Below are positions 13,708-63,591 of a stretch of 64,000 nucleotides of DNA, one piece after another. This DNA comes from Candidatus Tayloriibacteriota bacterium. GTDB lineage: Bacteria; Patescibacteriota; Minisyncoccia; Phycocordibacterales; PALSA-1337. The DNA lies in the NCBI GenBank assembly GCA_052034805.1, contig JBPOID010000004.1, positions 23,236 through 87,235 on the forward strand, in the 5' to 3' direction. The notes beneath the pieces were generated by a model. That model did no database searches. It was not told where the DNA came from and was given only the letters and a program-made list of their open reading frames with translations. Position 1 is the first letter of the stretch. Every line of letters starts with the position of its first letter. The position numbers were made by a program, and so were the translations under genes.

Positions 13708-13879
13708 TTTATTTAAAAATAATGAAAAGTATATTTATAAATACAATAAACACATAAAATATGGCTTATTTATTGACTATAAATAGATATACTGATCATC
13801 CTAAATCATTAGGTGATTCTAATCTATTGGTATATTACAAAAACACTTGACAAAATATAATAGTATGATAGGATATACG

Positions 13880-14278
13880 CAGGATGATCTTTGAAGGTTA
13901 GGTTCTTGTGAACCCCGACCAAGCTTGGTGAAAGCATGAGATTGTCCAGATAATGAGAGTACTGTTATGATTATAGTACTCATAGAAGCCAGAAAGGCCA
14001 CGCCATTATGAACGGACCTCCTACTACCACCCTGTCAATCTTTAAGAATATTAATTTCAACCCCAAGTCCGGCCCCGGCCCGTCCCAGATGAGCCGTTCG
14101 TATTAACACCACGAACGACTCAAGTTGAAGGGCTCCCTAGCTGATAAAGTTGGCGGCACACATTACAGCCAGTGTTACAGTCGGTCAGTGCCGAATACCA
14201 ACATTCGTTTAACAATGAATTCGGCCAGTGAGCTCTTCCACCCCCTACGACAAATAGTCGCAGGGGGTGTTTTTCTTA
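13880..14278 (+). ncRNA. GC-rich (roughly 55%) structured RNA candidate of about 400 nt; identity unresolved (RNase P RNA, tmRNA and SRP RNA considered)
   Basis: Sharp GC island in a 30% GC genome with no credible ORF. It ends on the plus strand with a hairpin ccccctacgac-aaata-gtcgcaggggg plus T-run at 14241-14277. Motifs like caagtccggcc and acagtcggtcagtg are reminiscent of, but do not match, RNase P conserved regions. Strand assignment rests on the terminator. Confidence 0.4.
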
Positions 14279-14295
14279 TATAACACCCCAATAAC

Positions 14296-19290: not shown

Positions 19291-20820
19291 ATGAATATAT
19301 CGAGAACTTATAGTGCTCAACTTTCAGGTTTAAATACACATATAATAACTATAGAAACTGATCTATCAAATGGTTTGCATGCTTTTACCATAGTTGGTTT
19401 AGGTGATAAATCCGTAGAAGAAGCGAGAGACAGAATATCCGCCGCAATAAAAAATACAGGGTATATTTCTCCAAAACAAAAGAATCAAAAAGTTGTTATA
19501 TCCCTAGCTCCAGCAGATCTGAGAAAAGAGGGTCCTGTATTTGATCTTGGTATGGCATTGGGTTATTTATTAGCTAGTGGTGATATTGATTTTGATACAG
19601 AAAAGAAAATATTTTTGGGTGAATTAGATCTGGAGGGAAGATTGAGAAAGGTTAATGGTGTATTGCCATTGGTAAGAGGAGTATGTGAACAAGGATTCAA
19701 AGAAGTTTATGTCCCAAAAGAGAATGTAATCGAAGCAAGTCTAGTCAGAGGTATAAAAATATATGCAGTTGAAAGTCTTGATCAGATAATTCATCATTTT
19801 TCCTTAAAGAAAAATAAAAGAATATCTATACACCCAGCAACACCTATAGTCTATAGTAATCAATATTCAGAAACTGATTTTTCTCTTATACAAGGACAGG
19901 AAACCGCAAAAAGAGGACTCGAAATAGCAGCGGCGGGTGGTCATAATATATCTATGTACGGACCTCCTGGTACTGGCAAAACTATGTTGGCAAAAGCTTT
20001 TCGTACTATACTTCCACCACTCAATCACGATGAAATATTAGAAGTTACGGGTATACATTCTATGGCTAGGACTCTGGATAAACCATTCATAGTTCATCCT
20101 CCGTTTCGCGCGCCACATCACACATCATCCTACGCATCTCTGGTCGGAGGTGGCCCCTTCCCAAAGCCAGGAGAAATAACCTTGGCACACAAAGGAGTTC
20201 TTTTCTTGGATGAATTTCCTGAATTTGAGAAAAATGTAATAGATGCCCTGAGACAACCATTAGAAGAAAGGACAATAACAATATCGCGAGCGCGTGGAGT
20301 ATTGACCTTCCCAGCTCAATGTATACTCATAGCATCTATGAATCCATGCCCATGTGGTTATGGTAAAGAAAAAGGATGTTCTTGTACCGATGCAGATATA
20401 AGATGGTATAAGAAACGCATTTCTGGACCAATAGTAGATCGTATAGATATATGGGTTTCGGTATCGAAGGTAGAATATGATAAACTCTGTAGCTCGTCCA
20501 ATCAAAATGAAAACTCAGAAACCATAAGAAAGCGCGTGGAAATGGCACGTAGAATACAGAAACAAAGATATATAAATAAAAATATAAAAAATAAAAGCTT
20601 AAATAGTGAAATGAGTGTATCTGATATAGAGAAATGTATTTCTTTTGACAAAGATGTTAAGAAATTCCTAACTTCTTCAGCAGAGAGACTCGGTATGTCC
20701 GGTAGGGCATATCATAGAACAATAAAATTATCCCAGACAATAGCCGATCTAGACAGAAGTGATATTATAAAGAAAGATCATGTATTAGAAGCATTACAAT
20801 ACAGAGAAAAAAGATTTTGA
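19291..20820 (+). CDS. comM: Mg-chelatase-like AAA+ protein ComM/YifB
   Basis: Lon-like N-terminal domain, Walker A GPPGTGKT, C-terminal ChlI-like region; 509 aa. Confidence 0.85.
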   Translation: MNISRTYSAQLSGLNTHIITIETDLSNGLHAFTIVGLGDKSVEEARDRISAAIKNTGYISPKQKNQKVVISLAPADLRKEGPVFDLGMALGYLLASGDIDFDTEKKIFLGELDLEGRLRKVNGVLPLVRGVCEQGFKEVYVPKENVIEASLVRGIKIYAVESLDQIIHHFSLKKNKRISIHPATPIVYSNQYSETDFSLIQGQETAKRGLEIAAAGGHNISMYGPPGTGKTMLAKAFRTILPPLNHDEILEVTGIHSMARTLDKPFIVHPPFRAPHHTSSYASLVGGGPFPKPGEITLAHKGVLFLDEFPEFEKNVIDALRQPLEERTITISRARGVLTFPAQCILIASMNPCPCGYGKEKGCSCTDADIRWYKKRISGPIVDRIDIWVSVSKVEYDKLCSSSNQNENSETIRKRVEMARRIQKQRYINKNIKNKSLNSEMSVSDIEKCISFDKDVKKFLTSSAERLGMSGRAYHRTIKLSQTIADLDRSDIIKKDHVLEALQYREKRF

Positions 20821-24270: not shown

Positions 24271-25161
24271 ATGAAGAAAATAAAAGAAAATATAGAAAAT
24301 TCAATAGATACTTCAATGGATACAGAGGGTATTGATCAAAACATATCAGAAAACGGCCAAAAATATAGACTTATAGCAAAAAAGTCATTGGGGCAGAACT
24401 TTATACATGCTCCACAGATCATAAGTGCCATGATTCATGCTGGAAATGTTATAAATACTGATATTATCCTTGAAATAGGCCCTGGAAATGGAGCTTTGAC
24501 ATCTAATCTACTGAAAACCGGTGCAAAAATAATAGCAATAGAGAAAGATGATAGAGCAATACCAATATTACAAGATAAATTCTCAAAAGAAATAGAAAAT
24601 GGTCAATTAGAAATTATACATAATGATATTTTGGCTATAAATATAGCTTCTTTAGGATTACAAGCTCATAAATACAAGATAATAGCCAATATTCCTTACT
24701 ATATAAGCGGTGAATTGATTAGGAAATTCCTAGAATCAGATATACAACCAAACAAAATAGTCATAATGTTACAGAAAGAATTAGCAAAAAGAATAGTTGA
24801 TGAAAAGGGCAGTATACTAGCAATGTCAATAAAGGCCTATGGTAAGCCAAAATACATCGTTTCTGTACCTAGAAAATTCTTTAGACCTATACCAAATGTA
24901 GATTCTGCTGTAATTTCTATAGAAAATATAAGCAAAGACTTCTTTTACTTAAATAAAATAAATGAAAATCAATTCTTTGAGGTGCTAAAAACAGGTTTCG
25001 CACATAAAAGAAAAGTATTAATAAAAAATCTAGAAAAAGTCATAGAAAAAGACAAATTAAAAAAGATTTGGGAAAAAGAAAAAATAAGAGAAAACACAAG
25101 AGCAGAGGAGTTAAAATTAGATGATTGGAAAAAGATATTGTTTTCCACAGAAATAGAATAA
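24271..25161 (+). CDS. rsmA: 16S rRNA (adenine1518/1519-N6)-dimethyltransferase RsmA/KsgA
   Basis: LGQNFI...EIGPGNGALT...NIPY motifs. Confidence 0.9.
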   Translation: MKKIKENIENSIDTSMDTEGIDQNISENGQKYRLIAKKSLGQNFIHAPQIISAMIHAGNVINTDIILEIGPGNGALTSNLLKTGAKIIAIEKDDRAIPILQDKFSKEIENGQLEIIHNDILAINIASLGLQAHKYKIIANIPYYISGELIRKFLESDIQPNKIVIMLQKELAKRIVDEKGSILAMSIKAYGKPKYIVSVPRKFFRPIPNVDSAVISIENISKDFFYLNKINENQFFEVLKTGFAHKRKVLIKNLEKVIEKDKLKKIWEKEKIRENTRAEELKLDDWKKILFSTEIE

Positions 25162-25210
25162 AATTGCCAATTTTTATAGCATTTCTCTGATATAATTATA
25201 TCGGCTATTA

Positions 25211-26197
25211 ATGAAGCAATCGAGCCTAAAAAACCTAGCCTTTATAGTTATTGCCTTGATCGTAATTGGGGCGGTTTTTGCTTTTGCAGAATATAATAAT
25301 AAATCCAGTAAAAATCTAGTATATGATTCATCTACAATAGCATCCAATAAAATAGAAAGTGTAGATCCAGAATTGAAAAATAAAGATACAGATGGAGATG
25401 GTCTAAAAGATTGGGAAGAAACACTTCTTGGTACTGATATAAAAAACAAAGATACCGATGGAGATGGAACTTCCGATGGAGCTGAAGTCAAAGCTGGTAG
25501 AAATCCATTACTAAAAGCTACGAATGATAAAATAGATAGTAATACATCAACAAAATCAGAATCCCAAAAAGAAAAACTAACAAATACAGATATTTTGGCT
25601 AGAGATTTCTTTGCTAAATATATGGAATTAAAACAAGTTGGACTCGCTGAAGACAAAGAAAGCCAACAAGAAATGATAAGTCAGGTACTAAAGGGTGGAT
25701 TGGTAATAGAAAAACCAAAAGACTATACAGTAAGTAATGTAAAAATAATTACAGATAATAGCAAAGAAGCATTAAAGAAATATGGTAATGATACAGGAGC
25801 TATTTTCCAGAAATATATAATAAAAGATTCCAGAAATGAAATGGTAATAGAAAAAGAAGCTTTAGATAAAGAAGATTTTACAGTAATTAAAGAATTAGAT
25901 CCTATTATTTTGAGTTATAAAAATATGCTTTCTGGATTATTAAAAGTGAATACACCACAAAATATAAGTAATATTCATTTAGATATTATAAATAGTTTAA
26001 ATGGTTTAATATTTGCCGATGAATCATTAAAAAAAATAGAATTAGATCCAGTATCTGGAGTACAGGGAACAGCTAATTATCTCGAATCAACAAAGAAATT
26101 AAATATCGCTTTTAATAATTTAAAAAGTAGTTTGAATAATCAAGGAATAATGTATACGAAAGACGAATCCGGTAGTTTCTTTATATCATCAAATTAA
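25211..26197 (+). CDS. Secreted or membrane-anchored protein with thrombospondin type-3-like Ca-binding repeats (DKDTDGDG, two copies); first gene of the T4SS-like operon
   Basis: N-terminal TM/signal; DxDxDGxxD repeats. Confidence 0.5.
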   Translation: MKQSSLKNLAFIVIALIVIGAVFAFAEYNNKSSKNLVYDSSTIASNKIESVDPELKNKDTDGDGLKDWEETLLGTDIKNKDTDGDGTSDGAEVKAGRNPLLKATNDKIDSNTSTKSESQKEKLTNTDILARDFFAKYMELKQVGLAEDKESQQEMISQVLKGGLVIEKPKDYTVSNVKIITDNSKEALKKYGNDTGAIFQKYIIKDSRNEMVIEKEALDKEDFTVIKELDPIILSYKNMLSGLLKVNTPQNISNIHLDIINSLNGLIFADESLKKIELDPVSGVQGTANYLESTKKLNIAFNNLKSSLNNQGIMYTKDESGSFFISSN

Positions 26198-27841
26198 ATG
26201 AAAAATAATAATTTTAAAAAACTAATTTCTGCAACTCTTGTAATAACAATTATATTTTCATCTTTTGCTTTTGCATTACCGAAAAAAGCCGAGGCACAAT
26301 GGGTGGTTACAGATCCTGGAAATATAGTACAGTCAACAATAACAGCAGCAAATACTACATCTAGTGCATTCTCTCAATATTCACTACAATTAAAAGCTTT
26401 CGTTCTTGATACATTAGCAACATCACTTGCAAAACAAGTTATAAGACAAATAACAGCAAGTGTTGTGAATTGGATAAATTCTGGATTCGAAGGCAGTCCA
26501 TCCTTTATCACTAATCCTGGAGCATTTTTCCTAGATGTTGCTGATCAAATAACAGGAGAATTCCTAGCAAAAGCTGGTGGACCATTAACGGCTTTATGTT
26601 CTCCATTCAGTATAGATATACGTATTGCATTATCGTTCAAATATCATCCTAATATCCAGAAAAGATATGCCTGTACAATCGGTACAATAATAAAAAATAG
26701 TAGCAATGCAATAGCTGGAGCAAATATAAATGGATTTACGGCAGGGGATTTCAAACAGGGTGGTTGGCCAGCATTCGTATCTCTTACAACTGAACCTCAG
26801 AACAATCCTTATGGAGCATATCTCACAGCTGATAGTGAACTTTCTCTAAGAGTAGCGAATGCTCAATTGCAACAGAAAGACGAACTTAATCAGGGTGGAG
26901 GATTTCTTTCATATAAAAAATGTAAAGATGTTGATGTTATAGATCCTAGTAGTATATCTGGCTCCGATATACCAGCAGGCGACTCTGGAGATAATGGTTC
27001 AAATGTTGTTGGTTCAGATTATATTGGCCCAATAAATTCTCCTGCGGGTCAAGTTAGAAAACAGAAAAAATGTGAAATAGTAACTCCAGGATCAGTTATA
27101 ATGGGTGCCGTAGAAGCAAATGTAAATGGTCCTTTGCATGAATTACAATTAGTTGATTCCATAAACCAAATCGTTAACGCTCTTTTTGCTCAATTAGTAA
27201 CACAAGTATTAACAAAAGGATTAGGAGCAGTTAGTGGAAATGGACCTAGTGATTCATCTTCATATATTTATCAAATACAAAACGAAAAGAATGGCGAAAT
27301 AGAACAAGTAAGTTCTACAAAAGCAGAATTATTAAAGAATCTAAGTACGTATTTGGATAATGCATTCAAATATAAAGACAATAAAGATCAATCATTAAAT
27401 CTTGCATTAGCAGCAAAGAGTTCTTATGAGGCAGTGAAAACATGTTATGCAAATAAGATTTCAAACAATCAACCTCCATTAACACAATCACAAATGTCTC
27501 AGGCTCAAGATAATATAAATGCTATTGATTCAATAATAACAAGCAATGTAACACCACTGGCATCTAGATTATTAAGTGAAGCACAAAAAGCAGACACTCG
27601 TTATCAAACTCTAATAGATATAAAGACTAGAGCAAATGCAGCAAAAACAGTAAATGAATTATCAGCTCCTAGTACAGAATATTCTCTTATGTTACAGAAC
27701 AGAACTCTAGTTTCTGTTATAGATATTTCAGATTCTAGTCAGGAATTCGAATCAGTCAAAACAACAACAGATACAATGAGACAGGATGCCAATAGGAAAT
27801 TACAGGAATGCCAATTATTCCCTAGTTATGGATTATTTTAA
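26198..27841 (+). CDS. Secreted hypothetical protein (signal peptide), T4SS-like operon
   Basis: 547 aa; cleavable signal MKNNNFKKLISATLVITIIFSSFAFALPKKAEA; start abuts the previous stop. Confidence 0.5.
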   Translation: MKNNNFKKLISATLVITIIFSSFAFALPKKAEAQWVVTDPGNIVQSTITAANTTSSAFSQYSLQLKAFVLDTLATSLAKQVIRQITASVVNWINSGFEGSPSFITNPGAFFLDVADQITGEFLAKAGGPLTALCSPFSIDIRIALSFKYHPNIQKRYACTIGTIIKNSSNAIAGANINGFTAGDFKQGGWPAFVSLTTEPQNNPYGAYLTADSELSLRVANAQLQQKDELNQGGGFLSYKKCKDVDVIDPSSISGSDIPAGDSGDNGSNVVGSDYIGPINSPAGQVRKQKKCEIVTPGSVIMGAVEANVNGPLHELQLVDSINQIVNALFAQLVTQVLTKGLGAVSGNGPSDSSSYIYQIQNEKNGEIEQVSSTKAELLKNLSTYLDNAFKYKDNKDQSLNLALAAKSSYEAVKTCYANKISNNQPPLTQSQMSQAQDNINAIDSIITSNVTPLASRLLSEAQKADTRYQTLIDIKTRANAAKTVNELSAPSTEYSLMLQNRTLVSVIDISDSSQEFESVKTTTDTMRQDANRKLQECQLFPSYGLF

Positions 27842-27844
27842 TTC

Positions 27845-29881
27845 ATGAAAAATAAAAGCAATAAAATTCTAATACTGTCAGCAATAATGGGAATAGCATT
27901 CTTTGTATTACCTTTTATTACAAATGCAGCAGGGGATGGATTCATACAGGGTGTAGGTATATCAGTGGTGAATAGTGCTATAGCGAATATAGCGAATTTC
28001 TTCTTGATGTTATCATCATCTATTGTTTTCTGGACTGGAATGTTGCTGAGTATATCAGTAAGAATAACTCTAAGTATAGGAGATATATATAATTCTATAG
28101 AAGGAATGAAATCAGTATGGGTAACAATAAGAGATTTATCAAGTATATTTATAATATTCTCATTACTTTACTATTCTATAAGGACAATACTTGGCAATGC
28201 AGAAGTCAGTATGAATAAACTGATAATAAAGATATTCATAGCGGGTATAATGATAAACTTCAGTCTATTCTTTGTAAAAATTGCCGTTGATGCTTCGAAT
28301 ATTATTTCGCTTCAATTCTATAATGCAATAACCCCAAGTGATAGTGCTAGATTGACTAATATTGATATTAAACATCTTGCTTCTGTAGAAAATACTATAA
28401 AAGATGCTAGTGGTCTTTCAAATATCTTTATGCAAAGTCTAAAATTACCTAAAATCTATGAAAATACAGGTGTGTTCAAATCAACAGATGTAACAGCAAG
28501 TATAGGATTCGCAGCTATAGCAGGAATAGTAATGATGGTGGTGGCTGGATTATCTTTCTTGGCTGCTTCTTTATCTTTCATAATAAGAACGGCAATATTA
28601 CTCACGATTATGGCTTTGTCTCCATTATTCTTTGCTGGAATGATTTTCCCAGATATAAAGAAGAGGGTTTCAGATAAAATGTCTGGTTTTCTATATAGTC
28701 AATGTGTATTTATGCCTGTTTATTTCTTTCTACTTTATGTAGCTCTTAGAATAATAAGTGATGATGGATTCATGAGTATATTCAATCAGAGTGTAACGAA
28801 TCCATCAGGAGCTACAAATAGTCCAGTATTCGTAGGTACAATAATCCAATACACAATAGCCATAATATTTATAAATCTACCTTTATTAGCTGCGATAGAA
28901 CTCGGTGGTCAGGGTATGAAATGGGCACCACAAGCAAAAGATATTGGTAAATTGTTGGGAGGATTTGCAGGTAGAAATACTGTTGGAAGATTGTCCAGAT
29001 GGGCCGGAGAATCATTTGACAAAGGTGCTGCTAGTGGAAAGGTATTCGGTAGTGAGAATCTATACAGACTAGGAAATAATCCACTCATGTCCAAAGTTAG
29101 TCAGGGTATTAGAGGTGGACTAAGATCTGGTGAAGAATCAAAATATGGTGGATCTGGAAATCTAAGTTCAGTTGAGAAAATAGATAAAGCAAGAAGAGTA
29201 GAGTTAGATACAATGAACAGACAAACTACCAGAAAGTCAGAAATAAGTAGTATTCTAGATAATCGAGCACCTCTAGATCTAAATTCTATAGATAATACAA
29301 AGAGCATAAAAGAAATAGAGAATATAAAGGGAGTATTAAGTAAAATGAATTCTAAAGAAATAGAAAAACTTGGAGATAAATTAAAAGATTCATATGTTGC
29401 GGCAGCTATGAATTCAAAACAAGCTGAAAATATTATGAAATCAGATATGCCAGATAAAAATAAAGAAGATTTTATGAAATCTAGAGCAGAAGGACTGAAG
29501 ATAGCTATGAAAACAATAAGTTCAGGAGATTTTGAATCAATAATGAAAGAGGATTTCAATGATGAACAGAAAAAAGATTTGAAAGATCATAGAGTAAATA
29601 TACTAGAAAAAGCTATAGCATCCGGTAAATCAGATGAAGTCAAAGAATATATGAAAAATCTGTCTGCAAAAGAATTGGCAAAATTAAAGCCCGAGACATT
29701 AAAAGATGTAAATCTAATTAATAATTTATCTCTTGCTCATTTGAAAGAAATGGAAGATACACTAGATAGAGGAACAAAGAGAGTTATAGCTAAACATATT
29801 CGTAACCTACCAGCAGACAATGAGCATAAGGCATACGGATATATGCAAGATGATAAAAACTTTGATAGATGGTCAAAATAA
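27845..29881 (+). CDS. VirB6/TrbL-like polytopic inner-membrane protein with a C-terminal hydrophilic extension
   Basis: 678 aa; signal plus 6 or more TM helices in the first 350 aa, then a charged tail. This topology is typical of VirB6/TrbL. Assignment rests on architecture and context, not on a sequence motif. Confidence 0.5.
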   Translation: MKNKSNKILILSAIMGIAFFVLPFITNAAGDGFIQGVGISVVNSAIANIANFFLMLSSSIVFWTGMLLSISVRITLSIGDIYNSIEGMKSVWVTIRDLSSIFIIFSLLYYSIRTILGNAEVSMNKLIIKIFIAGIMINFSLFFVKIAVDASNIISLQFYNAITPSDSARLTNIDIKHLASVENTIKDASGLSNIFMQSLKLPKIYENTGVFKSTDVTASIGFAAIAGIVMMVVAGLSFLAASLSFIIRTAILLTIMALSPLFFAGMIFPDIKKRVSDKMSGFLYSQCVFMPVYFFLLYVALRIISDDGFMSIFNQSVTNPSGATNSPVFVGTIIQYTIAIIFINLPLLAAIELGGQGMKWAPQAKDIGKLLGGFAGRNTVGRLSRWAGESFDKGAASGKVFGSENLYRLGNNPLMSKVSQGIRGGLRSGEESKYGGSGNLSSVEKIDKARRVELDTMNRQTTRKSEISSILDNRAPLDLNSIDNTKSIKEIENIKGVLSKMNSKEIEKLGDKLKDSYVAAAMNSKQAENIMKSDMPDKNKEDFMKSRAEGLKIAMKTISSGDFESIMKEDFNDEQKKDLKDHRVNILEKAIASGKSDEVKEYMKNLSAKELAKLKPETLKDVNLINNLSLAHLKEMEDTLDRGTKRVIAKHIRNLPADNEHKAYGYMQDDKNFDRWSK

Positions 29882-30678
29882 TTAAAATTATGGAAAATGA
29901 AAATTCAAAAATAAATATGGATGCAAATTTAATAGTAAAAACAATGAGTTCTATTGGTACATATTCAAAATTAGAATCTATTGGAGAAAAGTATAATCTA
30001 ATGATAGATCAAATTGGCCAATTGGAAATAGATACAAGAATGGTAATGATAGGCAAGATAAAATCTGATGATTTTGTAGATACAATAGCCAAAAATCTAG
30101 AAATACCGAGAGAAACTGCTCAGAAAATAGCAGTGGATATAAACAATGAAATCCTAATGACAGTTCGTGAATCAATACGCAAAATGCAAGAAGGTGAATC
30201 TATTGTAGAAGAAAAGATTCCATCCGTACCGCCAATGCCCCCAAGACCTATAGCACAAATGAACACCGAAAGACCTATACCAGTACCAAATCCAATACAA
30301 ACTCCTAACTATAGTCGACCAATACCATCTACACCCCAAACTACATCTCCATATAATCCGCCAATACCACCTATACCTAAAGCTCCACCAGCTTCTCCAA
30401 TAAGAAATACAAATCTATCTGATATAGAAAGAATAGGTGGATTCACTATAGAAAGTAGACCTCTTTCTAATTCTCCTCAATACAATGATACAAATCCAGA
30501 TAGGGAAGAAGTATTAAAAGAAATAGAAAAATACGAAAATACTGGATCAAAAGATGGTATAAGTTTCGTTGATCATTTGCTTTCAAATCCAGTTTCAAAC
30601 AAAGAACAAATAAAAGTTATAAAACCAGAAGTAAAAAAAGATACATATACTACAGATCCTTACAGAGAACCAATATAA
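29869..30678 (+). CDS. Pro-rich hypothetical protein (overlaps previous gene by 13 nt)
   Basis: 269 aa; PPMPPRPI...PIPPIPKAPPASP low-complexity core. Confidence 0.45.
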   Translation: MVKIIKIMENENSKINMDANLIVKTMSSIGTYSKLESIGEKYNLMIDQIGQLEIDTRMVMIGKIKSDDFVDTIAKNLEIPRETAQKIAVDINNEILMTVRESIRKMQEGESIVEEKIPSVPPMPPRPIAQMNTERPIPVPNPIQTPNYSRPIPSTPQTTSPYNPPIPPIPKAPPASPIRNTNLSDIERIGGFTIESRPLSNSPQYNDTNPDREEVLKEIEKYENTGSKDGISFVDHLLSNPVSNKEQIKVIKPEVKKDTYTTDPYREPI

Positions 30679-30698
30679 TAATGATATAATCAACATAT

Positions 30699-31133
30699 AT
30701 GCGTTTCCAAGTACCACAATTCATAGAAGTTGAAGACAAAATATTTGGTCAATTTACCATAAAGCAATTCATATATATGGCGGGTGGCGCTGGATTATCG
30801 TTTGCAGTATACAGACTTATAGGATCATTTATATTTTCAATACCAATAATAATTGTAATAATGGCCTTTTCTGCAGCATTAGCATTTTATAGAATAAATG
30901 AAAGATTTCCTTTTATTTATATAGTGGAAGCAGCATTCAAATATGTATTTTCTAATAAACTCTATATATGGAAAAAAATGGAAAACAAAAAAGTGAATGA
31001 AGATAATACTGATCAAGAAATAAAGAAATATGCATCTGTTATGGTTCCGAAAATTTCTGATAGCAAATTAAAAGATCTTACATGGAGTCTGGATATAAAA
31101 GAGAGTATGTATACAAATAAAAATCAAAAATAA
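30699..31133 (+). CDS. VirB3-like small two-TM membrane protein (PrgI/TrbD analogue)
   Basis: 144 aa, two adjacent TM helices, sits immediately upstream of the VirB4 gene as in T4SS loci. Confidence 0.45.
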   Translation: MRFQVPQFIEVEDKIFGQFTIKQFIYMAGGAGLSFAVYRLIGSFIFSIPIIIVIMAFSAALAFYRINERFPFIYIVEAAFKYVFSNKLYIWKKMENKKVNEDNTDQEIKKYASVMVPKISDSKLKDLTWSLDIKESMYTNKNQK

Positions 31134-31766
31134 ATGCCAAAAGATAAAAAAACAACACAAGATTTCGTACCAATACAAGAAATAAGAGATGGTATTGTTA
31201 TATTAAAAGATAATTCAATGAGAGCGATAGTATTGGCTTCTTCTCTTAACTTTGCATTGAAATCAGCCGATGAACAAAATTCTATTATTTTCCAATTCCA
31301 AAATTTCTTAAACTCTTTAGATTTTTCTGTACAGATTTTCGTACAATCAAAAAGATTAGATATAAGGCCATATATAGCCCTTTTAGAAGAAAGATACAAG
31401 GAACAATTAACAGAATTGATGAAAATACAAACTAGAGAATATATAGAATTCATAAAAACTTTCGTAGAAAATTCTAGTATTATGACAAAAAGTTTCTTTA
31501 TAGTTATACCTTATACTCCACCTCTTATATCTTCTAATTCTAATCCATTAGGAAATCTGATAAATAAAAAAGAGGGTCCAAAAGTTACACCGAATGAACA
31601 ATTCAATGAATACCGAAGTCAGCTAGAGCAGAGAGTAGGGGTTGTTGAGCAAGGATTAGTAAGATGTGGTGTTAGAGTCGCAGAACTTGGAACAGAAGAA
31701 GTGGTAGAATTATATTATAAGATTTTCAATCCTGGAGAAACAGAGAAACCTATACAGATCAATTAA
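31134..31766 (+). CDS. VirB4/TrbE N-terminal domain encoded as a separate ORF
   Basis: QDFVPIQEIRDGIVILKDNSMRAIVLASSLNFALKSADEQNSIIFQFQNFLNSL matches the N-terminal (CagE_TrbE_VirB) domain pattern of VirB4 proteins. Followed by three in-frame TAA codons. Confidence 0.6.
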   Translation: MPKDKKTTQDFVPIQEIRDGIVILKDNSMRAIVLASSLNFALKSADEQNSIIFQFQNFLNSLDFSVQIFVQSKRLDIRPYIALLEERYKEQLTELMKIQTREYIEFIKTFVENSSIMTKSFFIVIPYTPPLISSNSNPLGNLINKKEGPKVTPNEQFNEYRSQLEQRVGVVEQGLVRCGVRVAELGTEEVVELYYKIFNPGETEKPIQIN

Positions 31767-31780
31767 TAATAAAAAATAAA

Positions 31781-33601
31781 ATGGGTATTTTTAGCAAAAT
31801 GTTTGGTAAAAAAGAAGATCCGAAAATAGTATCTCTTATGCCACAAGAGATCTATGAAGCTGGCGTTCTCGAATTAAAGGATATTATCGCTCCTTCAGCA
31901 TTGAAAATAAATCCAAAAGAAATAAATCTTGGAGAAAAGATCGCTAGAACATTTTTCGTTATATCTTATCCTAGATTTCTAACTGATAGTTGGTTTGCCC
32001 CTATAATAAACCTAGATAAGGTCTTTAATATTTCTATTTTTATTCATCCTATAGATACAGCGAGAATATTGAGACATTTCAGAAAGAAGGTTGCCGAAGT
32101 ACAGAGTCAAATAGCTCAAAGGGAACAGAAGGGGCTTGTTAGAGACCCTTTACTTGATACTGCATATCAAGATCTAGAAGCATTGAGAGATAATCTAATG
32201 CAAGCTCAAGAAAAGATTTTTGATGTTGGCGTATATATAACTATATATGGTGATTCTGATTCTGAATTAGATAAAATAGAATCCGAAGTAAAATCCATAC
32301 TAGAATCAAAATTAGTATATATAAAACCAGCATTATTCCAACAAGAAAGTGGATATAGAAGTGTATTACCTATAGCAAATGATGAACTTATGGTTCATTC
32401 TAAACTCAATTCCTCACCACTTTCATCATTATTTCCATTCGTATCTTTCGATTTAACATCAGATAAGGGCATACTTTATGGAATAAACAGACATAATTCA
32501 TCTCTAGTACTTTTCGATAGATTTTTATTAGAAAACTATAATTCCGTAACCTTTGCCAAGGCTGGAGCCGGTAAATCATACAATGTTAAACTAGAAATAC
32601 TTAGAACTTTAATGTTCGATACTGAAGTTATCGTTATAGATCCAGAAAAGGAATACGAATACATGGCAGAAGCAACAGGTGGCAAATATTTTAATATATC
32701 TCTTAATTCTGAACATCATATAAATCCTTTTGACCTTCCTATGCCTAGAGAGGATGAAAGCGCTTCGGATGTTTTGCGTTCAAATATAATAAATTTGGTT
32801 GGACTTTTCCGTATAATGCTTGGCGGATTATCCCAAGAAGAAGATGCAATAATAGATAGAGCTATTACAGAAACTTATGCATTAAAGGATATTACACCTG
32901 AATCTAATTTCAAGAATATTGAGCCACCACTTCTATCTGATTTTGAATTAGTGCTTGCTGGAATGGAAGGAGCTGAATCTCTAGTAGAAAGATTGAGTAA
33001 ATATACAAAGGGAACATGGTCAGGATTCATAAATAGACCTTCAAATGTTGATATAAACAAGAAATTCGTCGTTTTCTCATTGCGAGATATGGAAGATGAA
33101 TTGAAACCAGTAGCAATGTATATAGTTACACATTATATATGGAATGCCATAAGAAAACAGTTGAAAAAGCGTCTTCTAGTCATAGATGAGGCTTGGTGGA
33201 TGATGAAATCAGAGGATACGGCTTCATTCCTACTCAGTTTGGCAAAGAGAGGTAGAAAATATTATTTAGGTTTGGCAACAATAACACAGGATGTTGATGA
33301 TTTCCTTAATTCTCCTTATGGATTGCCTATTATCACGAACTCTTCTATACAAATTCTATTGAAACAAAGTCCAACTTCAATAGATAAAATACAAAAAACA
33401 TTTAATCTAACCGATGAAGAGAAATATCTTCTATTAGAATCAGATTTGGGGGAGGGAATATTCTTCGTAGGACTTAAACATGTAGCCATAAAAGTTGTGG
33501 CTTCTTATACAGAAGATCAAATAATAACTACGAATCCAGCCCAAGTTCTAGCCATAAAGAAAGCCAAGGAAGATTTGGAAAATAGCGAAAATAGTAGATA
33601 A
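31781..33601 (+). CDS. virB4: VirB4/TrbE/PrgJ-family T4SS ATPase (C-terminal ATPase portion)
   Basis: Walker A FAKAGAGKS, Walker B LLVIDEAWWMM; 606 aa; with the preceding 210-aa ORF this totals about 816 aa, typical of VirB4. Confidence 0.85.
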   Translation: MGIFSKMFGKKEDPKIVSLMPQEIYEAGVLELKDIIAPSALKINPKEINLGEKIARTFFVISYPRFLTDSWFAPIINLDKVFNISIFIHPIDTARILRHFRKKVAEVQSQIAQREQKGLVRDPLLDTAYQDLEALRDNLMQAQEKIFDVGVYITIYGDSDSELDKIESEVKSILESKLVYIKPALFQQESGYRSVLPIANDELMVHSKLNSSPLSSLFPFVSFDLTSDKGILYGINRHNSSLVLFDRFLLENYNSVTFAKAGAGKSYNVKLEILRTLMFDTEVIVIDPEKEYEYMAEATGGKYFNISLNSEHHINPFDLPMPREDESASDVLRSNIINLVGLFRIMLGGLSQEEDAIIDRAITETYALKDITPESNFKNIEPPLLSDFELVLAGMEGAESLVERLSKYTKGTWSGFINRPSNVDINKKFVVFSLRDMEDELKPVAMYIVTHYIWNAIRKQLKKRLLVIDEAWWMMKSEDTASFLLSLAKRGRKYYLGLATITQDVDDFLNSPYGLPIITNSSIQILLKQSPTSIDKIQKTFNLTDEEKYLLLESDLGEGIFFVGLKHVAIKVVASYTEDQIITTNPAQVLAIKKAKEDLENSENSR

Positions 33602-48230: not shown

Positions 48231-49910
48231 CTATTCTTCTATTTCTACTACTCTTTCTAATTCTTCTATTGATGTTATTCCTTTCAATACTTTAATAATT
48301 CCATCTTGTTCCATTGTGAGTATACCTTGAGGCTTAGCAGCTAATGCAATTTCTCTATCGCTACTACCTATTTCCACAGCTTTTTCTACTGATTCGTCCA
48401 TAAGTATTCCTTCGTATATACCTATTCTGCTCTTGTATCCTGTTTGACTGCATTTATCACAACCTACTGCTTGCCATATCTTGCCATTTTCTAATTCTTT
48501 ATTAGGAATTTGTGTTTTGTCATAAATAGAATCTATAATTTTATTTATTTTCTCTTTATTTTCACCTTCTAAAGGAATTTCTTTTTTACAATAAACACAT
48601 AGTCTTCTTAGAAGTCTTTGTGCTAGAGATATACTAACAGATGATGCAAATATTTTTGGATTAATTCCCAAATCCATAAGTCTAGGGAATGCTCCCGCAG
48701 CATCATTTGTGTGTAGGGTAGAGAATACCAAGTGACCTGTTAATGCAGAGTTTATCGCTATATTCGCTGTTTCACTATCTCTTATTTCACCGATCATTAT
48801 GATATCGGGGTCTTGTCTTACTGTGGCGCGTAATCCTTCCAAGAATGTATAGCCTTTATCATTCACCTGTGTTTGTACTATACCAGGTAGATGATATTCT
48901 ATTGGATCTTCTATAGTCACTATCTTTACTGTAGGATTGTATATTTTCTTTATAAAAGCATATAGAGTTGTTGTCTTTCCCGAACCTGTAGGTCCTGTTG
49001 TAAGTATCATTCCATTTGGCTTATCTATTTCTTTTAAAAGAATACCCAATAACTTTTCTGGTATACCTAATTCTTCTAATGGAACGCCAATACTTTTCGG
49101 ATTAAGCAATCTCATCACTATAGATTCACCGTATGATCCAGGTAATAGGGAAGTACGTATTTCTATATTTTCTTTATTTACATGAACACTGAATCTACCA
49201 TCCTGAGAATCTTTTTTTACATTTAGTTTTAATCCAGATAGAAGTTTTATTCTAGATAATAGAAGATTATATGTTTCTGAATCAAAATCTATTATTTTTA
49301 TCAATACTCCATCTAGTCTATATCTCAGTCTTATATATTTTTCTTCTGGTTCTATATGTATATCTGATGCATTCAGAGATAATCCACCAGCGAGTATGGT
49401 TTCTAATATTCTAGAAACTCTATAGCTTTTCTTCATTGCCAATGTTTCTTCGAGAAGAGATGTTATACTAGGTAAACTCTTTGCTTTTTCTACAATACTT
49501 CCTATTTCTTCGCTGGATATTTCTAATGAGCCAGCTTTTGTTTCGTATGCAAAAGAAAGATCTTTATACGCTGACCATGCTTTCTCTAAACTCGCCATAG
49601 AACATATATATAATATAGGTTCATAGCCTTTTTTCTTTATTTCATCTAGTATTTCTTTAGTTTTTTCTAGCTCTGGATTTCTTGCGGCTAATTTTAGTCT
49701 CTTATCTATCAATGCAAAGGCTACTATTTTATTTTCTCTTGATGTTTTCTCATCTACAAATCTCAAAGCATCAGTGTTTATAGGTATAAGAGATAGATCT
49801 ATATACTCTATTCCATATTTTGCAGAGAGAAGTTGAACTAATTCCTCCTCCTCTTTCTTTAGAAGTTCTCCTAATTTTCTTTTTTGTTTGTCTTCATCGA
49901 ACTCTATCAT
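48231..49910 (-). CDS. pilB: Type IV pilus / type II secretion assembly ATPase PilB/GspE family
   Basis: Walker A TGPTGSGKTTT, Asp box, His box, C-terminal tetracysteine (CVYC...CDKC); 559 aa. Confidence 0.9.
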   Translation of the reverse strand: MIEFDEDKQKRKLGELLKKEEEELVQLLSAKYGIEYIDLSLIPINTDALRFVDEKTSRENKIVAFALIDKRLKLAARNPELEKTKEILDEIKKKGYEPILYICSMASLEKAWSAYKDLSFAYETKAGSLEISSEEIGSIVEKAKSLPSITSLLEETLAMKKSYRVSRILETILAGGLSLNASDIHIEPEEKYIRLRYRLDGVLIKIIDFDSETYNLLLSRIKLLSGLKLNVKKDSQDGRFSVHVNKENIEIRTSLLPGSYGESIVMRLLNPKSIGVPLEELGIPEKLLGILLKEIDKPNGMILTTGPTGSGKTTTLYAFIKKIYNPTVKIVTIEDPIEYHLPGIVQTQVNDKGYTFLEGLRATVRQDPDIIMIGEIRDSETANIAINSALTGHLVFSTLHTNDAAGAFPRLMDLGINPKIFASSVSISLAQRLLRRLCVYCKKEIPLEGENKEKINKIIDSIYDKTQIPNKELENGKIWQAVGCDKCSQTGYKSRIGIYEGILMDESVEKAVEIGSSDREIALAAKPQGILTMEQDGIIKVLKGITSIEELERVVEIEE

Positions 49911-62475: not shown

Positions 62476-62563
62476 AGTCTTTCTTTTAGAAATTATACCA
62501 TTTAAACCTTATTTTTACCCATTTTTTCAACATTGACTTTACATAAATATTCATGCTATAATT

Positions 62564-62998
62564 ATGCCAGATATGAGGACATTGAGATTTTTGGGAAACC
62601 TTTTGGGGTTGGTGTTGTTGCTTGTCTCCGGCGTCGGTTGTGGTACCGTCGGAGACGCGCGGACTGTCGCCTATTGGCGATCTGATCCGTTATGTGATAC
62701 AAGGGTGGAAGTAGATCCGAACAACTTTGTTCGGAGAAGCTCGACCTATGTGTCGAACTTGGACGGGAGTTACCAATACTCTCACAGTCAGGGTACGGAC
62801 ATTTACGTAACCCAGACATGGTCCCCATGCGTGGGGAATAGAACCGAGGTACGTCAGAGTACCTACAGTAACACAAGTACCTATCAGAGTTCTGGTTCGT
62901 ACTATCCCTATCCCACCTTTACTTCCGGTGCTGGAGTATATGGTGGTTACAATTATGGTGGTAGTAGTATCCCACCCGGTAGAGGAATCTATCGTTAA
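62564..62998 (+). CDS. Small secreted / lipoprotein-like S/T/Y/G-rich protein encoded in a strongly GC-rich island
   Basis: 144 aa; signal peptide ...LLLVSGVGCG; local GC well above background. The antisense ORF 62562-62876 is judged spurious. Confidence 0.5.
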   Translation: MPDMRTLRFLGNLLGLVLLLVSGVGCGTVGDARTVAYWRSDPLCDTRVEVDPNNFVRRSSTYVSNLDGSYQYSHSQGTDIYVTQTWSPCVGNRTEVRQSTYSNTSTYQSSGSYYPYPTFTSGAGVYGGYNYGGSSIPPGRGIYR

Positions 62999-63005
62999 TA
63001 AGTTT

Positions 63006-63115
63006 CCGGTCTCGAGAGGGGACTCCCCACCTCTCTCATGGGAGAGAGGACTCCAAACCCCTCTCCGACCGGTTGCCGGTGTCGCTCTACCAAGAGTGGC
63101 ACCGGTTAATTTTTT
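63006..63115 (+). terminator. GC-rich nested palindrome (63006-63072) followed by a rho-independent terminator hairpin ccggtgtcgctctacc-aagagtggcaccgg plus T-run
   Basis: Outer arms ccggtctcgagagggg / cccctctccgaccgg, inner arms cctctctc / gagagagg; second hairpin then ttaatttttt. Confidence 0.55.
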
Positions 63116-63153
63116 ATATATTACTTTTTTATTTTTATGATATAGTTTTTATA

Positions 63154-63591
63154 ATGAAATCAATAATATCAAAATCAATCAATGAAACAGAGAAATTCGT
63201 AAAAGATTGGTTTTATTCTATAAATAAAAATACAGAAGAAGCGACTCTAATATGTCTCTATGGAAATCTAGGTAGTGGCAAAACTACTTTCACACAATCT
63301 TTAGCCAAAGAATTAGGTGTAAAAGAATTCGTTACCAGTCCTACATTTGTTATAGAAAAGATATACGAAACTCAAAATAAAGATTTTAAAAGATTGATAC
63401 ATATAGATGCATATAGATTAAATGGTGGTAAGGAATTACAAATATTAGGTTTTGAAGAATTGATCAATAATACAAATAATCTAATAGTCATAGAATGGCC
63501 TGAGAATGTAATAGATATTTTACCTGAAAATCATATAAAGATTCACTGCGAATTTGTCAATGAAAATTCTAGAAAATTTGATGTACAATAG
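63154..63591 (+). CDS. tsaE: tRNA t6A37 biosynthesis protein TsaE (start trimmed to MKSIISK; the longer ORF-track call overlaps the terminator)
   Basis: P-loop LYGNLGSGKTTF and SPTFVI motif. Confidence 0.8.
   Translation: MKSIISKSINETEKFVKDWFYSINKNTEEATLICLYGNLGSGKTTFTQSLAKELGVKEFVTSPTFVIEKIYETQNKDFKRLIHIDAYRLNGGKELQILGFEELINNTNNLIVIEWPENVIDILPENHIKIHCEFVNENSRKFDVQ

What the first reader, a model, noticed from the sequence alone, without database searches (positions are those of the whole stretch)
62560..63130. Strongly GC-rich 570-bp island: a small S/T/Y/G-rich secreted protein followed by a 67-bp nested GC palindrome and a terminator
The segment is dramatically more GC-rich than its surroundings. 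It encodes a 144-aa protein with a signal peptide (possible lipobox ...VSGVGC) and a low-complexity Tyr/Ser/Gly-rich C-terminus. It is followed by a nested palindrome (outer arms ccggtctcgagagggg/cccctctccgaccgg, inner arms cctctctc/gagagagg) and a second hairpin with a T-run. The compositional contrast and the elaborate palindrome suggest recent foreign origin (phage or mobile cargo) or a recombination/attachment site. The antisense ORFs on the track (62562-62876 minus; 62928-63140 plus) are artefacts of the high GC.
Basis: seen in the sequence. Interest (0 to 1): 0.5.

Follow-up and report, generated by a model that had tools for sequence, protein, structure and literature searches.

The report
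Hairpin-packed GC-rich lipoprotein gene in CPR
The GC-rich island is not foreign DNA but an old, conserved small lipoprotein gene of ultra-small (CPR/Patescibacteria) bacteria, and in nearly every relative examined its messenger RNA is unusually GC-rich and folds into a chain of hairpins, which points to selection on the RNA itself as well as on the protein.

Summary
Window 62573-63108 is about 50% GC against 25-30% in the flanks. It holds a real 141-aa lipoprotein gene, then a 67-nt nested palindrome (63006-63072) and an intrinsic terminator (63075-63115).

The interpretation as recent foreign DNA or an attachment site is not supported. The gene belongs to a small unannotated lipoprotein family of about 20 sequence clusters, all from CPR bacteria. 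In 9 of 10 loci it sits directly upstream of tsaE. In all ten loci it is a GC island: CDS GC is 0.48-0.57 and GC3 0.50-0.65, against locus GC of 0.32-0.43.

The unusual feature is mRNA structure.
- In 9 of 10 members the CDS folds far better than synonymous-codon shuffles (z -2.9 to -8.8). The neighbouring tsaE genes give z between -1.1 and +1.1, and E. coli lpp gives -1.2.
- Against a relative about 78% identical, stems are preserved: 12 broken pairs against 27 expected, with 6 double compensatory changes.
- The extra stability is specific to the sense strand.

The 3'UTR is 95% identical between the two relatives, against 77-81% for the CDSs. Nearly all its changes lie in loops or keep pairing. 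The palindrome is a tandem duplication of an ancestral 3'UTR hairpin and is not a genome-wide repeat.

Best reading: a strongly expressed, near-leaderless, structure-stabilised mRNA. The function of the structure is inferred, not shown.

The parts
62533..62562 (+). Near-consensus sigma-70 promoter with an extended -10 (TTGACT, 18-nt spacer, TGcTATAAT).
   Evidence: 11 of 12 matches, TG present. Both hexamers are conserved in the 78% relative while the surrounding intergenic DNA is only 69% identical. The same TTGACx / TG-n-TATAAT architecture lies upstream of other family members.
62573..62998 (+). CDS of a 141-aa prolipoprotein with three parts: the signal peptide MRTLRFLGNLLGLVLLLVSGVG|C, a beta-rich core (about residues 50-105), and a Gly/Tyr/Ser/Pro-rich tail ending in Arg. 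GC is 0.49 and GC3 is 0.50. The mRNA forms about 11 consecutive local hairpins from nt 51 onward.
   Evidence: Substitutions by codon position against the relative are 19/22/55, and all indels are multiples of 3. A profile search finds a family with invariant G-C and Q-G. Composition is, the hairpins, and the synonymous-shuffle z of -3.7. The start at 62573 rather than 62564 is inferred from promoter position and conservation.
63006..63072 (+). A 67-nt nested palindrome in the 3'UTR. It has an outer stem CCGGUC/GACCGG, an 8-bp stem GAGAGGGG/CCCCUCUC, an 8x8 internal loop (ACUCCCCA / ACUCCAAA), an 8-bp stem CCUCUCUC/GAGAGAGG, and the loop AUGG. It can also fold as two tandem 8-bp hairpins with C-rich 8-nt loops.
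   Evidence: (D1: two 24-nt units, 83% identical, 28 nt apart; I1). Against the relative there are 4 differences, plus 1 strain SNP. Four of these five are in unpaired positions and the fifth trims one terminal pair of the inner stem. The outer stem is homologous in L063 and L070, which carry a single inner hairpin. Only one copy exists in the window and loci.
63075..63115 (+). Intrinsic terminator: a 14-bp GC-rich hairpin plus a T-run.
   Evidence: It is conserved in L055, L063 and L070 with covarying pairs (GC/GU/AU, GU/CG). Its one change against L055 turns U-A into U-G.
63154..63591 (+). tsaE, the conserved downstream neighbour and synteny anchor. It is not part of the GC island (GC 0.27).
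   Evidence: Pfam TsaE 2.8e-34 and NCBIfam TIGR00150. tsaE is directly downstream of the family gene in 9 of 10 loci. As a control, its synonymous-shuffle z is -0.09.

Best explanation
The island is a single, monocistronic, vertically inherited gene of a Patescibacteria (CPR, Parcubacteria/Paceibacteria-like) genome.

Anatomy:
- A near-consensus extended -10 promoter lies 10 nt upstream of the start codon, so the mRNA is leaderless or nearly so.
- The transcript encodes a 141-aa lipoprotein of an uncharacterised CPR-restricted family.
- It ends in a conserved two-hairpin 3'UTR, the second hairpin being a Rho-independent terminator.

The GC-richness does not reflect foreign origin. It goes with selection on the mRNA itself. 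Synonymous sites are used to build a dense chain of stable local hairpins along the coding region, downstream of a less structured first ~50 nt, and stable hairpins in an AT-rich genome need G:C pairs.

The most likely purpose is a compact, nuclease-resistant, long-lived message for an abundant envelope lipoprotein. The 3'UTR stem-loops would act as barriers to 3' exonucleases. The 67-nt 'nested palindrome' arose by tandem duplication of the ancestral 3'UTR hairpin.

Shown:
- The gene codes for protein, belongs to the family, and keeps its synteny.
- GC enrichment is family-wide.
- The CDS has excess, conserved, sense-strand-specific structure.
- The 3'UTR is conserved.

Inferred:
- High expression and leaderless initiation.
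- Lipidation of the protein.
- That the structure serves mRNA stability.
For: Coding:
- Substitutions by codon position are 19/22/55, and indels are multiples of 3.
- Profile hits have a conserved signal peptide, lipobox Cys and a core motif, with E down to 1e-14 for a remote member.

Vertical inheritance:
- The same neighbours occur in the 78% relative, and divergence equals that of flanking genes.
- tsaE is directly downstream in 9 of 10 loci.

Family-wide GC island:
- CDS GC is 0.48-0.57 and GC3 0.50-0.65, against locus GC of 0.32-0.43 and tsaE GC3 of 0.18-0.37.
- Window genes have mean GC3 of 0.204 with sd 0.053.

Structure beyond composition, codon usage and protein sequence:
- Synonymous-shuffle z-scores are -3.7, -5.8, -6.6, -2.9, -0.9, -6.0, -8.75, -8.25, -4.96 and -3.57.
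- Eleven control genes give -1.13 to +1.08.

Structure conserved:
- There are 12 broken pairs against 26.7 +/- 3.8 expected (0 of 1000 permutations).
- There are 6 double compensatory pairs against 0-3 in slid controls.
- Hairpins recur at homologous motifs (lipobox, DPxVRRS, DGSYxYSH, EVRQSTY) in distant members, often with different sequence.

RNA level:
- The sense strand gains more stability than the antisense strand in 8 of 8 members.
- The terminator shows a GC to GU to AU series.

3'UTR:
- There are 6 differences in about 119 nt (95% identity), against 77-81% in CDSs and 69% in the promoter spacer.
- The changes lie in loops or bulges, or are wobble-compatible.

Promoter and terminator. 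The distance from -10 to ATG is 8-10 nt in five members.
Against: - No expression, half-life or proteomic data exist for these uncultivated organisms. High expression and stability are inferences.
- One family member (L062) shows no excess structure (z -0.9).
- Across distant members the hairpins are not in strict register, and RNAalifold finds no single consensus for the core. What is conserved is hairpin density, not one architecture.
- The textbook analogue, E. coli lpp mRNA, does not show the same signal (z -1.2). 'Abundant lipoprotein' alone therefore does not predict this.
- Strong CDS structure could also reduce translation.
- The lipobox of the window protein (G-V-G-C) is non-canonical at position -3.
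- The comparative base is small: about 20 clusters, 10 full loci, and one close relative.
Confidence: 0.6

Rival explanations
1. Dual-function RNA. Besides encoding the lipoprotein, the transcript or a 3'UTR-derived fragment acts as a regulatory or structural RNA. For example, the C-rich, anti-Shine-Dalgarno-like loops (ACUCCCCA, ACUCCAAA; ACCCCCAA and ACCCC in relatives) could pair with G-rich sequences of other mRNAs or bind a protein.
For: - The 3'UTR is far more conserved than any CDS.
- C-rich apical or internal loops are kept in all four homologous 3'UTRs.
- The overall composition and fold z-scores resemble those of ncRNA genes in AT-rich genomes.
- UCCC-type loops act as seed regions in S. 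aureus Rsa sRNAs (PMC2790875).
Against: - No target, processing site or partner has been identified.
- No Rfam match.
- Other family members (L060, L061, L069, L071, L072) have only a plain terminator.
- The loops do accept changes: an SNP and a 1-nt deletion.
Confidence: 0.15
2. The hairpins tune translation rather than stability. They would slow elongation so that synthesis keeps pace with Sec export and lipid modification, or make translation conditional on temperature or helicase activity.
For: - A hairpin sits on or next to the lipobox-coding segment in all six members examined.
- The first ~50 nt are less structured.
Against: - The hairpins cover the entire CDS, including the disordered tail, not only the export signal.
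- No other secreted protein in the window shows the trait.
- The idea is untestable here.
Confidence: 0.1
3. A neutral, mutational by-product. Heavy transcription exposes the non-template strand, and templated (quasi-palindrome) mutagenesis or biased repair builds GC-rich inverted repeats without any function.
For: - Hairpins differ in detail between distant members.
- The antisense strand also shows excess structure (z -1 to -8), as any inverted repeat would.
Against: - The extra stability is sense-specific in 8 of 8 members.
- Substitutions are depleted in stems, and compensatory pairs include independent third-position changes.
- The trait persists at about 30% amino-acid identity, against a strong AT mutational background.
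Confidence: 0.08
4. One reading: a recently acquired foreign segment (phage or mobile cargo), with the palindrome as an attachment or recombination site.
For: Composition and codon usage are about 5.6 sd from the genome mean.
Against: - Synteny is conserved, and divergence equals that of neighbours.
- No mobility genes, tRNA or flanking repeats are present.
- The family is restricted to CPR genomes.
- The palindrome is homologous to an ordinary 3'UTR hairpin in relatives.
Confidence: 0.03
5. The island is a non-coding RNA gene and the 141-aa ORF is fortuitous.
For: The island is GC-rich and strongly structured, has its own promoter and terminator, and lacks a Shine-Dalgarno sequence.
Against: - Substitutions show third-position periodicity, and all indels are in frame.
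- Remote protein homologues with very different DNA share a signal peptide, lipobox Cys and core motifs.
Confidence: 0.03

Closest known systems
E. coli lpp (Braun's lipoprotein) gene and mRNA
   Same: - It is a small monocistronic lipoprotein gene with a strong constitutive promoter, a short mRNA, a hairpin terminator and a stable message (half-life about 10 min; PMC5924895).
- From memory (Nakamura & Inouye, 1980), the lpp mRNA was described as folding into multiple stable hairpins.
- Its C-terminus is aromatic-basic (YRK), compared with YR, WR, RK or KK in this family.
   Different: - There is no sequence or fold relationship. Lpp is an alpha-helical coiled coil, while this protein is predicted to be beta-rich, and there is no Pfam LPP hit.
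- lpp has a 38-nt 5'UTR, whereas this gene is near-leaderless.
- By the same synonymous-shuffle test, lpp shows no marked excess structure (z -1.23), against -3 to -9 here.
- lpp is not a compositional outlier in its genome.
GC-rich structured ncRNA genes in AT-rich genomes (the signal used by GC-rich-IGR ncRNA discovery pipelines; PMC6429828, PMC8723152)
   Same: It shows a sharp GC island with its own promoter and terminator, strongly negative fold z-scores, and compensatory changes.
   Different: This one is translated: it shows codon periodicity and belongs to a conserved protein family. It matches no Rfam family.
Highly structured toxin mRNAs of type I toxin-antitoxin systems (e.g. hok, aapA1; PMC6733600)
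   Same: The coding mRNA's secondary structure is itself under selection and controls stability and translation.
   Different: Those mRNAs encode hydrophobic peptides of 30-50 aa, rely on long-range 5'-3' pairing, and have an antisense RNA partner. Here the product is a 141-aa lipoprotein, the hairpins are mainly local (154 of 178 pairs span 70 nt or less), and no antisense promoter is evident.
3'UTR stem-loop stabilisers and REP/BIME extragenic palindromes
   Same: A GC-rich stem-loop lies immediately downstream of a stop codon and upstream of the terminator. This is the classical position of barriers to 3' exonucleases.
   Different: REP elements are dispersed in many copies. This palindrome is single-copy, locus-specific and homologous to the same 3'UTR in relatives.

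Membership tests
Bacterial lipoproteins (Lgt/LspA substrates) | N-terminal signal peptide with a positively charged n-region and a hydrophobic h-region | tested here: met
   The N-terminus is MRTLRF-LGNLLGLVLLLV. AlphaFold predicts a helix at residues 3-20. The same layout is seen in aligned family members.
Bacterial lipoproteins (Lgt/LspA substrates) | Lipobox [LVI][ASTVI][GAS]-C with an invariant Cys at +1 | tested here: inconclusive
   G-C is invariant in alignment A4 and at least 90% conserved in A6. Most members are canonical or near-canonical (LTGC, LSGC, LAGC, VSGC). The window protein has G-V-G-C and its close relative N-S-G-C, both atypical at position -3. No dedicated predictor (LipoP/SignalP) was available.
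Bacterial lipoproteins (Lgt/LspA substrates) | Actual diacylglyceryl modification and signal peptidase II cleavage | not testable with these tools
   This needs biochemistry. The presence of lgt and lspA in this genome was not checked.
Braun lipoprotein Lpp (Pfam LPP) | Sequence match to the LPP family, with an alpha-helical coiled coil | tested here: not met
   No Pfam hit for any of the 21 members. The model is beta-rich.
Genomic island / recent horizontal transfer | Atypical composition and codon usage | tested here: met
   GC3 is 0.50 against 0.204 +/- 0.053 for window genes.
Genomic island / recent horizontal transfer | Patchy presence in relatives, mobility genes, tRNA or direct-repeat borders | tested here: not met
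   Synteny with tsaE holds in 9 of 10 loci. Divergence equals that of neighbours. No tRNA lies nearby, and no flanking repeats or integrase are present.
REP / BIME-like repeated extragenic palindromes | Many dispersed copies of the same palindrome in one genome | tested here: not met
   There is one copy in 64 kb even with up to 3 mismatches. In 20.6 kb of the relative and in 70 other loci it occurs only at its own locus. A metagenome pattern scan returned only chance hits in unrelated high-GC contigs. The whole genome beyond the window was not available.
Rho-independent (intrinsic) terminator | GC-rich hairpin immediately followed by a U-run, at the end of a transcription unit | tested here: met
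   The hairpin at 63075-63106 has 14 pairs, 8 of them G:C, and is followed by TTTTTT. It is conserved with covariation in relatives.
Any Rfam RNA family | Score at or above the family's gathering threshold | tested here: not met
   No hit in the island at gathering thresholds. The best E-value search hits were 0.3-5, all far below their gathering scores.

The most novel reading that the evidence does not exclude
The roughly 540-nt transcript is a bifunctional RNA. Under this reading it is a conserved, ncRNA-like, GC-rich structured scaffold, with C-rich anti-SD-like loops in its 3' domain, that has an RNA-level role in these ultra-small cells in addition to encoding the lipoprotein. That role could be regulatory, or the transcript could act as a sponge or a protein-binding or localisation scaffold. 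This would make it a new class of structured coding RNA, specific to Patescibacteria and linked to the tsaE-polA locus.
Probability: 0.15. Interest if true: 0.8.

Novelty: new variant of a known kind. Interest (0 to 1): 0.55.

Why it matters
Compositional islands are routinely read as horizontal transfer. Here the same gene is a GC island in every genome that carries it, because the RNA itself appears to be under selection. That is a clean counter-example to the usual reading.

It is also a rare bacterial case where selection on coding-region mRNA structure can be seen directly. The evidence is synonymous-shuffle z-scores down to -9, compensatory third-position changes, and sense-strand specificity.

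The case also defines a previously unannotated lipoprotein family. The family is restricted to CPR bacteria, is probably abundant at the cell surface, and is tightly linked to tsaE-polA. It is therefore a candidate envelope or host-interaction protein in organisms whose surface biology is largely unknown.

Finally, it offers a natural model for asking how AT-rich, ribosome-poor cells stabilise key messages.

Tried and rejected
- Rfam at gathering and at E<=10 found nothing relevant.
- Pfam and NCBIfam on the ORF gave nothing, nor did Pfam on the 21 family members or a PDB sequence profile search.
- AlphaFold with a 2-sequence alignment was useless (pLDDT 34).
  - With 21 sequences the core reached about 80 pLDDT, but Foldseek against PDB gave no hit below E 0.1.
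  - The weak capping-protein and levivirus-coat matches are just long beta-hairpins.
  - The afdb50 library was unavailable.
- The genome-contig scan with the 2-sequence alignment found no relative.
  - A4 was too divergent for pattern design.
  - A5 recovered 4 loci.
- The metagenome scan for the palindrome pattern returned 52 hits. All were chance matches in unrelated high-GC contigs.
- RNAalifold on the codon-aligned family core gave no consensus structure. I therefore do not claim a single conserved architecture.
- The idea that the palindrome is coding (ORF 62928-63140) was rejected, because 1-nt indels in the relative break the frame.
- The idea that E. coli lpp shows the same CDS-structure signal was tested and rejected.
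Full report
**1. The observation**

Window 62560-63130 is a sharp compositional island. In 200-nt windows GC rises from 0.23-0.28 to 0.50-0.53 and falls back to 0.25. It is the GC-richest 300-nt stretch of the 64-kb window, whose mean GC is 0.315.

- The 144-aa ORF lies at 62564-62998.
- A hairpin at 63075-63106 is followed by a T-run.
- The segment folds far better than dinucleotide shuffles on both strands: z -6.55 on the plus strand and -6.21 on the minus strand.
- No Rfam family matches.

**2. Coding or non-coding**

A GC island with its own promoter and terminator in an AT-rich genome is the classic signature of an ncRNA gene, so I tested coding directly.

A protein search found one true homologue with 79% amino-acid identity, plus an identical fragment. 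The homologue's full locus is on NCBI MAG contig CAZDPI010000001.1, held here as L055.

Comparing window and relative:
- Differences in the ORF fall 19/22/55 on codon positions 1/2/3. Flanking genes show the same kind of pattern, for example the sigma factor at 35/13/70.
- All four indels are multiples of 3.
- ORF nucleotide identity is 76.6%, against 78-81% for its neighbours.

The ORF is therefore a protein-coding gene under purifying selection, and it has diverged in step with the genome.

The overlapping ORFs are artefacts. They change length in the relative. The plus ORF at 62928-63140 is broken by two 1-nt indels. The variable third positions of the + frame fall on second positions of the minus ORF; this follows from the coordinates.

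**3. Start codon and promoter**

A promoter matching the consensus at 11 of 12 positions, with an extended -10, occupies 62533-62562. Its hexamers are conserved in the relative, while the surrounding spacer is only 69% identical.

The conserved start is ATG 62573 (MRTL...). It lies 10 nt after the -10 hexamer, which implies a 5'UTR of about 3-4 nt. This is an inference.

The same spacing of 8-10 nt occurs in L055, L060, L063 and L070. Other family members have leaders of 19-60 nt.

**4. The protein family**

An exhaustive profile search over 1.84 billion cluster representatives found 17 proteins with E<=1e-3. A profile search of the 90%-identity clusters found 21.

Almost all are 110-200 aa; two variants (P0145, P0146) carry a long insert and reach about 220-240 aa. 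The family has these features:
- an N-terminal signal peptide;
- a G-C lipobox, invariant in the 17-sequence alignment and at least 90% conserved in the 21-sequence one;
- a conserved core, LPxDPVRRSS..DGSYxYSHSQGTD..V..WDPY.GPR..VRQSTYNNTSESY;
- a variable Pro/Gly/Tyr-rich tail that usually ends in an aromatic-basic pair.

No member has a Pfam domain, and none has a relative in the PDB by sequence.

AlphaFold with the 21-sequence alignment gives three long beta-strands (residues 56-61, 67-84 and 88-105) at about 80 pLDDT. The linker and tail are disordered. Foldseek against PDB finds nothing below E 0.1. The protein's function is unknown.

The organisms are Patescibacteria (CPR). Source names on the closest sigma-factor homologues and on the family loci include Parcubacteria, Paceibacterota, Minisyncoccia and 'uncultured Candidatus Saccharibacteria'.

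**5. Not foreign DNA**

In the 78% relative the neighbourhood is identical: MFP-ABC-MacB, ORF172, an anti-sigma-like gene and the ECF sigma factor on one strand, then divergently the lipoprotein gene, tsaE and polA.

Across more distant members the upstream neighbour varies. It can be the ECF sigma operon, the MFP/MacB operon or a PilB-type ATPase. tsaE, however, lies directly downstream on the same strand in 9 of 10 loci. In the tenth (L061) it is about 3 kb downstream.

There is no integrase, tRNA or flanking direct repeat.

**6. The unexpected part: GC-richness is a property of the gene family**

In all ten loci the CDS is a GC island.

| Measure | Family gene | Comparison |
|---|---|---|
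| CDS GC | 0.48-0.57 | locus GC 0.32-0.43 |
| GC3 | 0.50-0.65 | adjacent tsaE 0.18-0.37 |
| Window genes, mean GC3 | | 0.204, sd 0.053 |

The trait persists down to about 30% amino-acid identity, so it is maintained rather than a fading relic of transfer.

**7. Selection on mRNA structure**

I shuffled synonymous codons within each CDS, which keeps the protein sequence, codon usage and composition. The native sequences fold much better than the shuffles.

| Locus | z-score |
|---|---|
| window | -3.7 |
| L055 | -5.8 |
| L060 | -6.6 |
| L061 | -2.9 |
| L062 | -0.9 |
| L063 | -6.0 |
| L069 | -8.75 |
| L070 | -8.25 |
| L071 | -4.96 |
| L072 | -3.57 |

Eleven control genes gave z between -1.13 and +1.08. 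These were the adjacent tsaE from nine loci plus two other window genes.

The structure is a chain of about 11 local hairpins starting near nt 51; the first ~50 nt are less structured. Hairpins recur over the same protein motifs in distant members: the lipobox region, DPxVRRS, DGSYxYSH and EVRQSTY. They are often built from different sequence or in a shifted register. RNAalifold finds no single consensus for the codon-aligned core. What is conserved is hairpin density rather than one fixed architecture.

Between window and L055, with 96 substitutions in the CDS:
- Substitutions are depleted in stems: 41% fall in stems, while 55% of positions are paired.
- Only 12 local pairs are broken, against 26.7 +/- 3.8 expected when substitutions are permuted within codon-position classes (0 of 1000 permutations).
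- Six pairs changed on both sides and stayed paired, against 0-3 when partners are slid by 1-3 nt.
- Those six pairs are 62701-62749, 62851-62860, 62886-62893, 62920-62938, 62923-62935 and 62963-62970. In four of them both partners are third codon positions.

The extra stability is larger on the sense strand than on the antisense strand in 8 of 8 members. That points to the RNA rather than to DNA palindromes.

**8. The 3'UTR and the palindrome**

From the stop codon to the T-run, about 119 nt, window and relative differ at 6 positions. That is 95% identity, against 77-81% in CDSs and 69% in the promoter spacer.

Within the palindrome:
- The differences are 63013 C>T, deletion of 63037, 63040 G>C and deletion of 63055.
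- A strain SNP at 63025 is seen in L058 and L059.
- All lie in loops or bulges, except the 63037 deletion, which trims the last pair of the inner stem.

The single terminator change, at 63095, turns U-A into U-G.

The 3'UTR is homologous in two more distant members, L063 and L070. They share the motif TTTCCGGT...RCCGG as an outer stem around one inner hairpin with a C-rich loop. A terminator follows whose pairs covary: G-C/G-U/A-U and G-U/C-G.

In the window lineage the inner hairpin is present twice in tandem: two 24-nt units, 83% identical and 28 nt apart. Two tandem copies of a hairpin can always also pair arm-to-arm. That explains the 'nested palindrome' with its 8x8 internal loop. The alternative fold is two 8-bp hairpins presenting the loops ACUCCCCA and ACUCCAAA.

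The element is single-copy in the window and in 20.6 kb of the relative. A metagenome pattern scan returned only chance matches. It is therefore not REP-like.

**9. Mechanism**

Shown:
- The unit is monocistronic, with a strong-consensus promoter and a strong terminator.
- It encodes a conserved lipoprotein.
- Its mRNA has excess, conserved, sense-specific secondary structure.
- Its 3'UTR is hyper-conserved.

Inferred: the message is built to be compact and long-lived for an abundant envelope protein. GC-richness would be the price of stable stems in an AT-rich genome, and the 3' stem-loops would block 3' exonucleases.

The nearest textbook analogue is E. coli lpp, which is small, constitutive, very abundant and has a stable mRNA (PMC5924895). 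By the same test, however, lpp shows no marked excess structure (z -1.23). The trait here therefore goes beyond the analogue.

Alternatives that remain open:
- an RNA-level second function, for example C-rich anti-SD-like loops as in S. aureus Rsa RNAs (PMC2790875);
- control of translation rate for export;
- a mutational by-product of heavy transcription.

**10. Verdict**

The foreign-origin and attachment-site interpretation is rejected, while the description of the protein and terminator is supported.

The locus is a member of a new, unannotated CPR lipoprotein family. Its family-wide, GC-rich, hyper-structured mRNA is an unusual variant of known structured or stable mRNAs.

The evidence is entirely computational. 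It rests on about 20 sequence clusters and one close relative.

Noticed in passing
window 13870-14280 (+): This is a second GC-rich island (up to about 0.49 GC) between a minus-strand gene and rpsO-pnp. It has a promoter-like TTGACA...TAGGAT and a strong terminator (CCCCCTACGAC...GTCGCAGGGGGTGTTTTT). It contains no ORF longer than 52 aa, and its fold z-score is -5.1. It has no Rfam match even at E<=1, and ARAGORN calls no tmRNA. It is a candidate unclassified ncRNA of about 390 nt.
   Followed up: partly
window 19850-20400 (+), inside ORF 19291-20820: There is a milder GC rise (0.43-0.49) inside the ComM/Mg-chelatase-like ATPase gene. It probably reflects the conserved ATPase core and was not examined further.
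   Followed up: no
window 62573; L055, L060, L063, L070 upstream regions: In five family members the start codon lies only 8-10 nt after the -10 hexamer and there is no Shine-Dalgarno sequence. This suggests leaderless translation initiation in these CPR bacteria. tsaE and the ECF sigma gene in the window also lack an obvious SD.
   Followed up: partly
L066 1779-2432; proteins P0145 and P0146: Longer variants of the family (about 220-240 aa) carry an insert of roughly 100 aa, rich in Thr/Val/Asn, between the signal peptide and the conserved core. In P0146 and L066 the lipobox Cys is replaced (..FTAS..), so some members may be secreted rather than lipid-anchored.
   Followed up: no
window 24271-33601 and 48231-49910: The window also encodes components resembling type IV secretion or pilus systems: a VirB4/TraG-like P-loop ATPase at 31781-33601, a DUF4141 protein at 26198-27841, and a PilB/T2SSE ATPase at 48231-49910. 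In several relatives the PilB-type ATPase is the upstream neighbour of the lipoprotein gene.
   Followed up: no
family C-termini (proteins P0123-P0148): Most family members end in an aromatic or proline residue followed by one or two basic residues (YR, WR, RK, KK, PK). This recalls the YRK end of Braun's lipoprotein, whose terminal Lys is cross-linked to peptidoglycan. The window protein ends in Arg, so the same chemistry is not implied.
   Followed up: no
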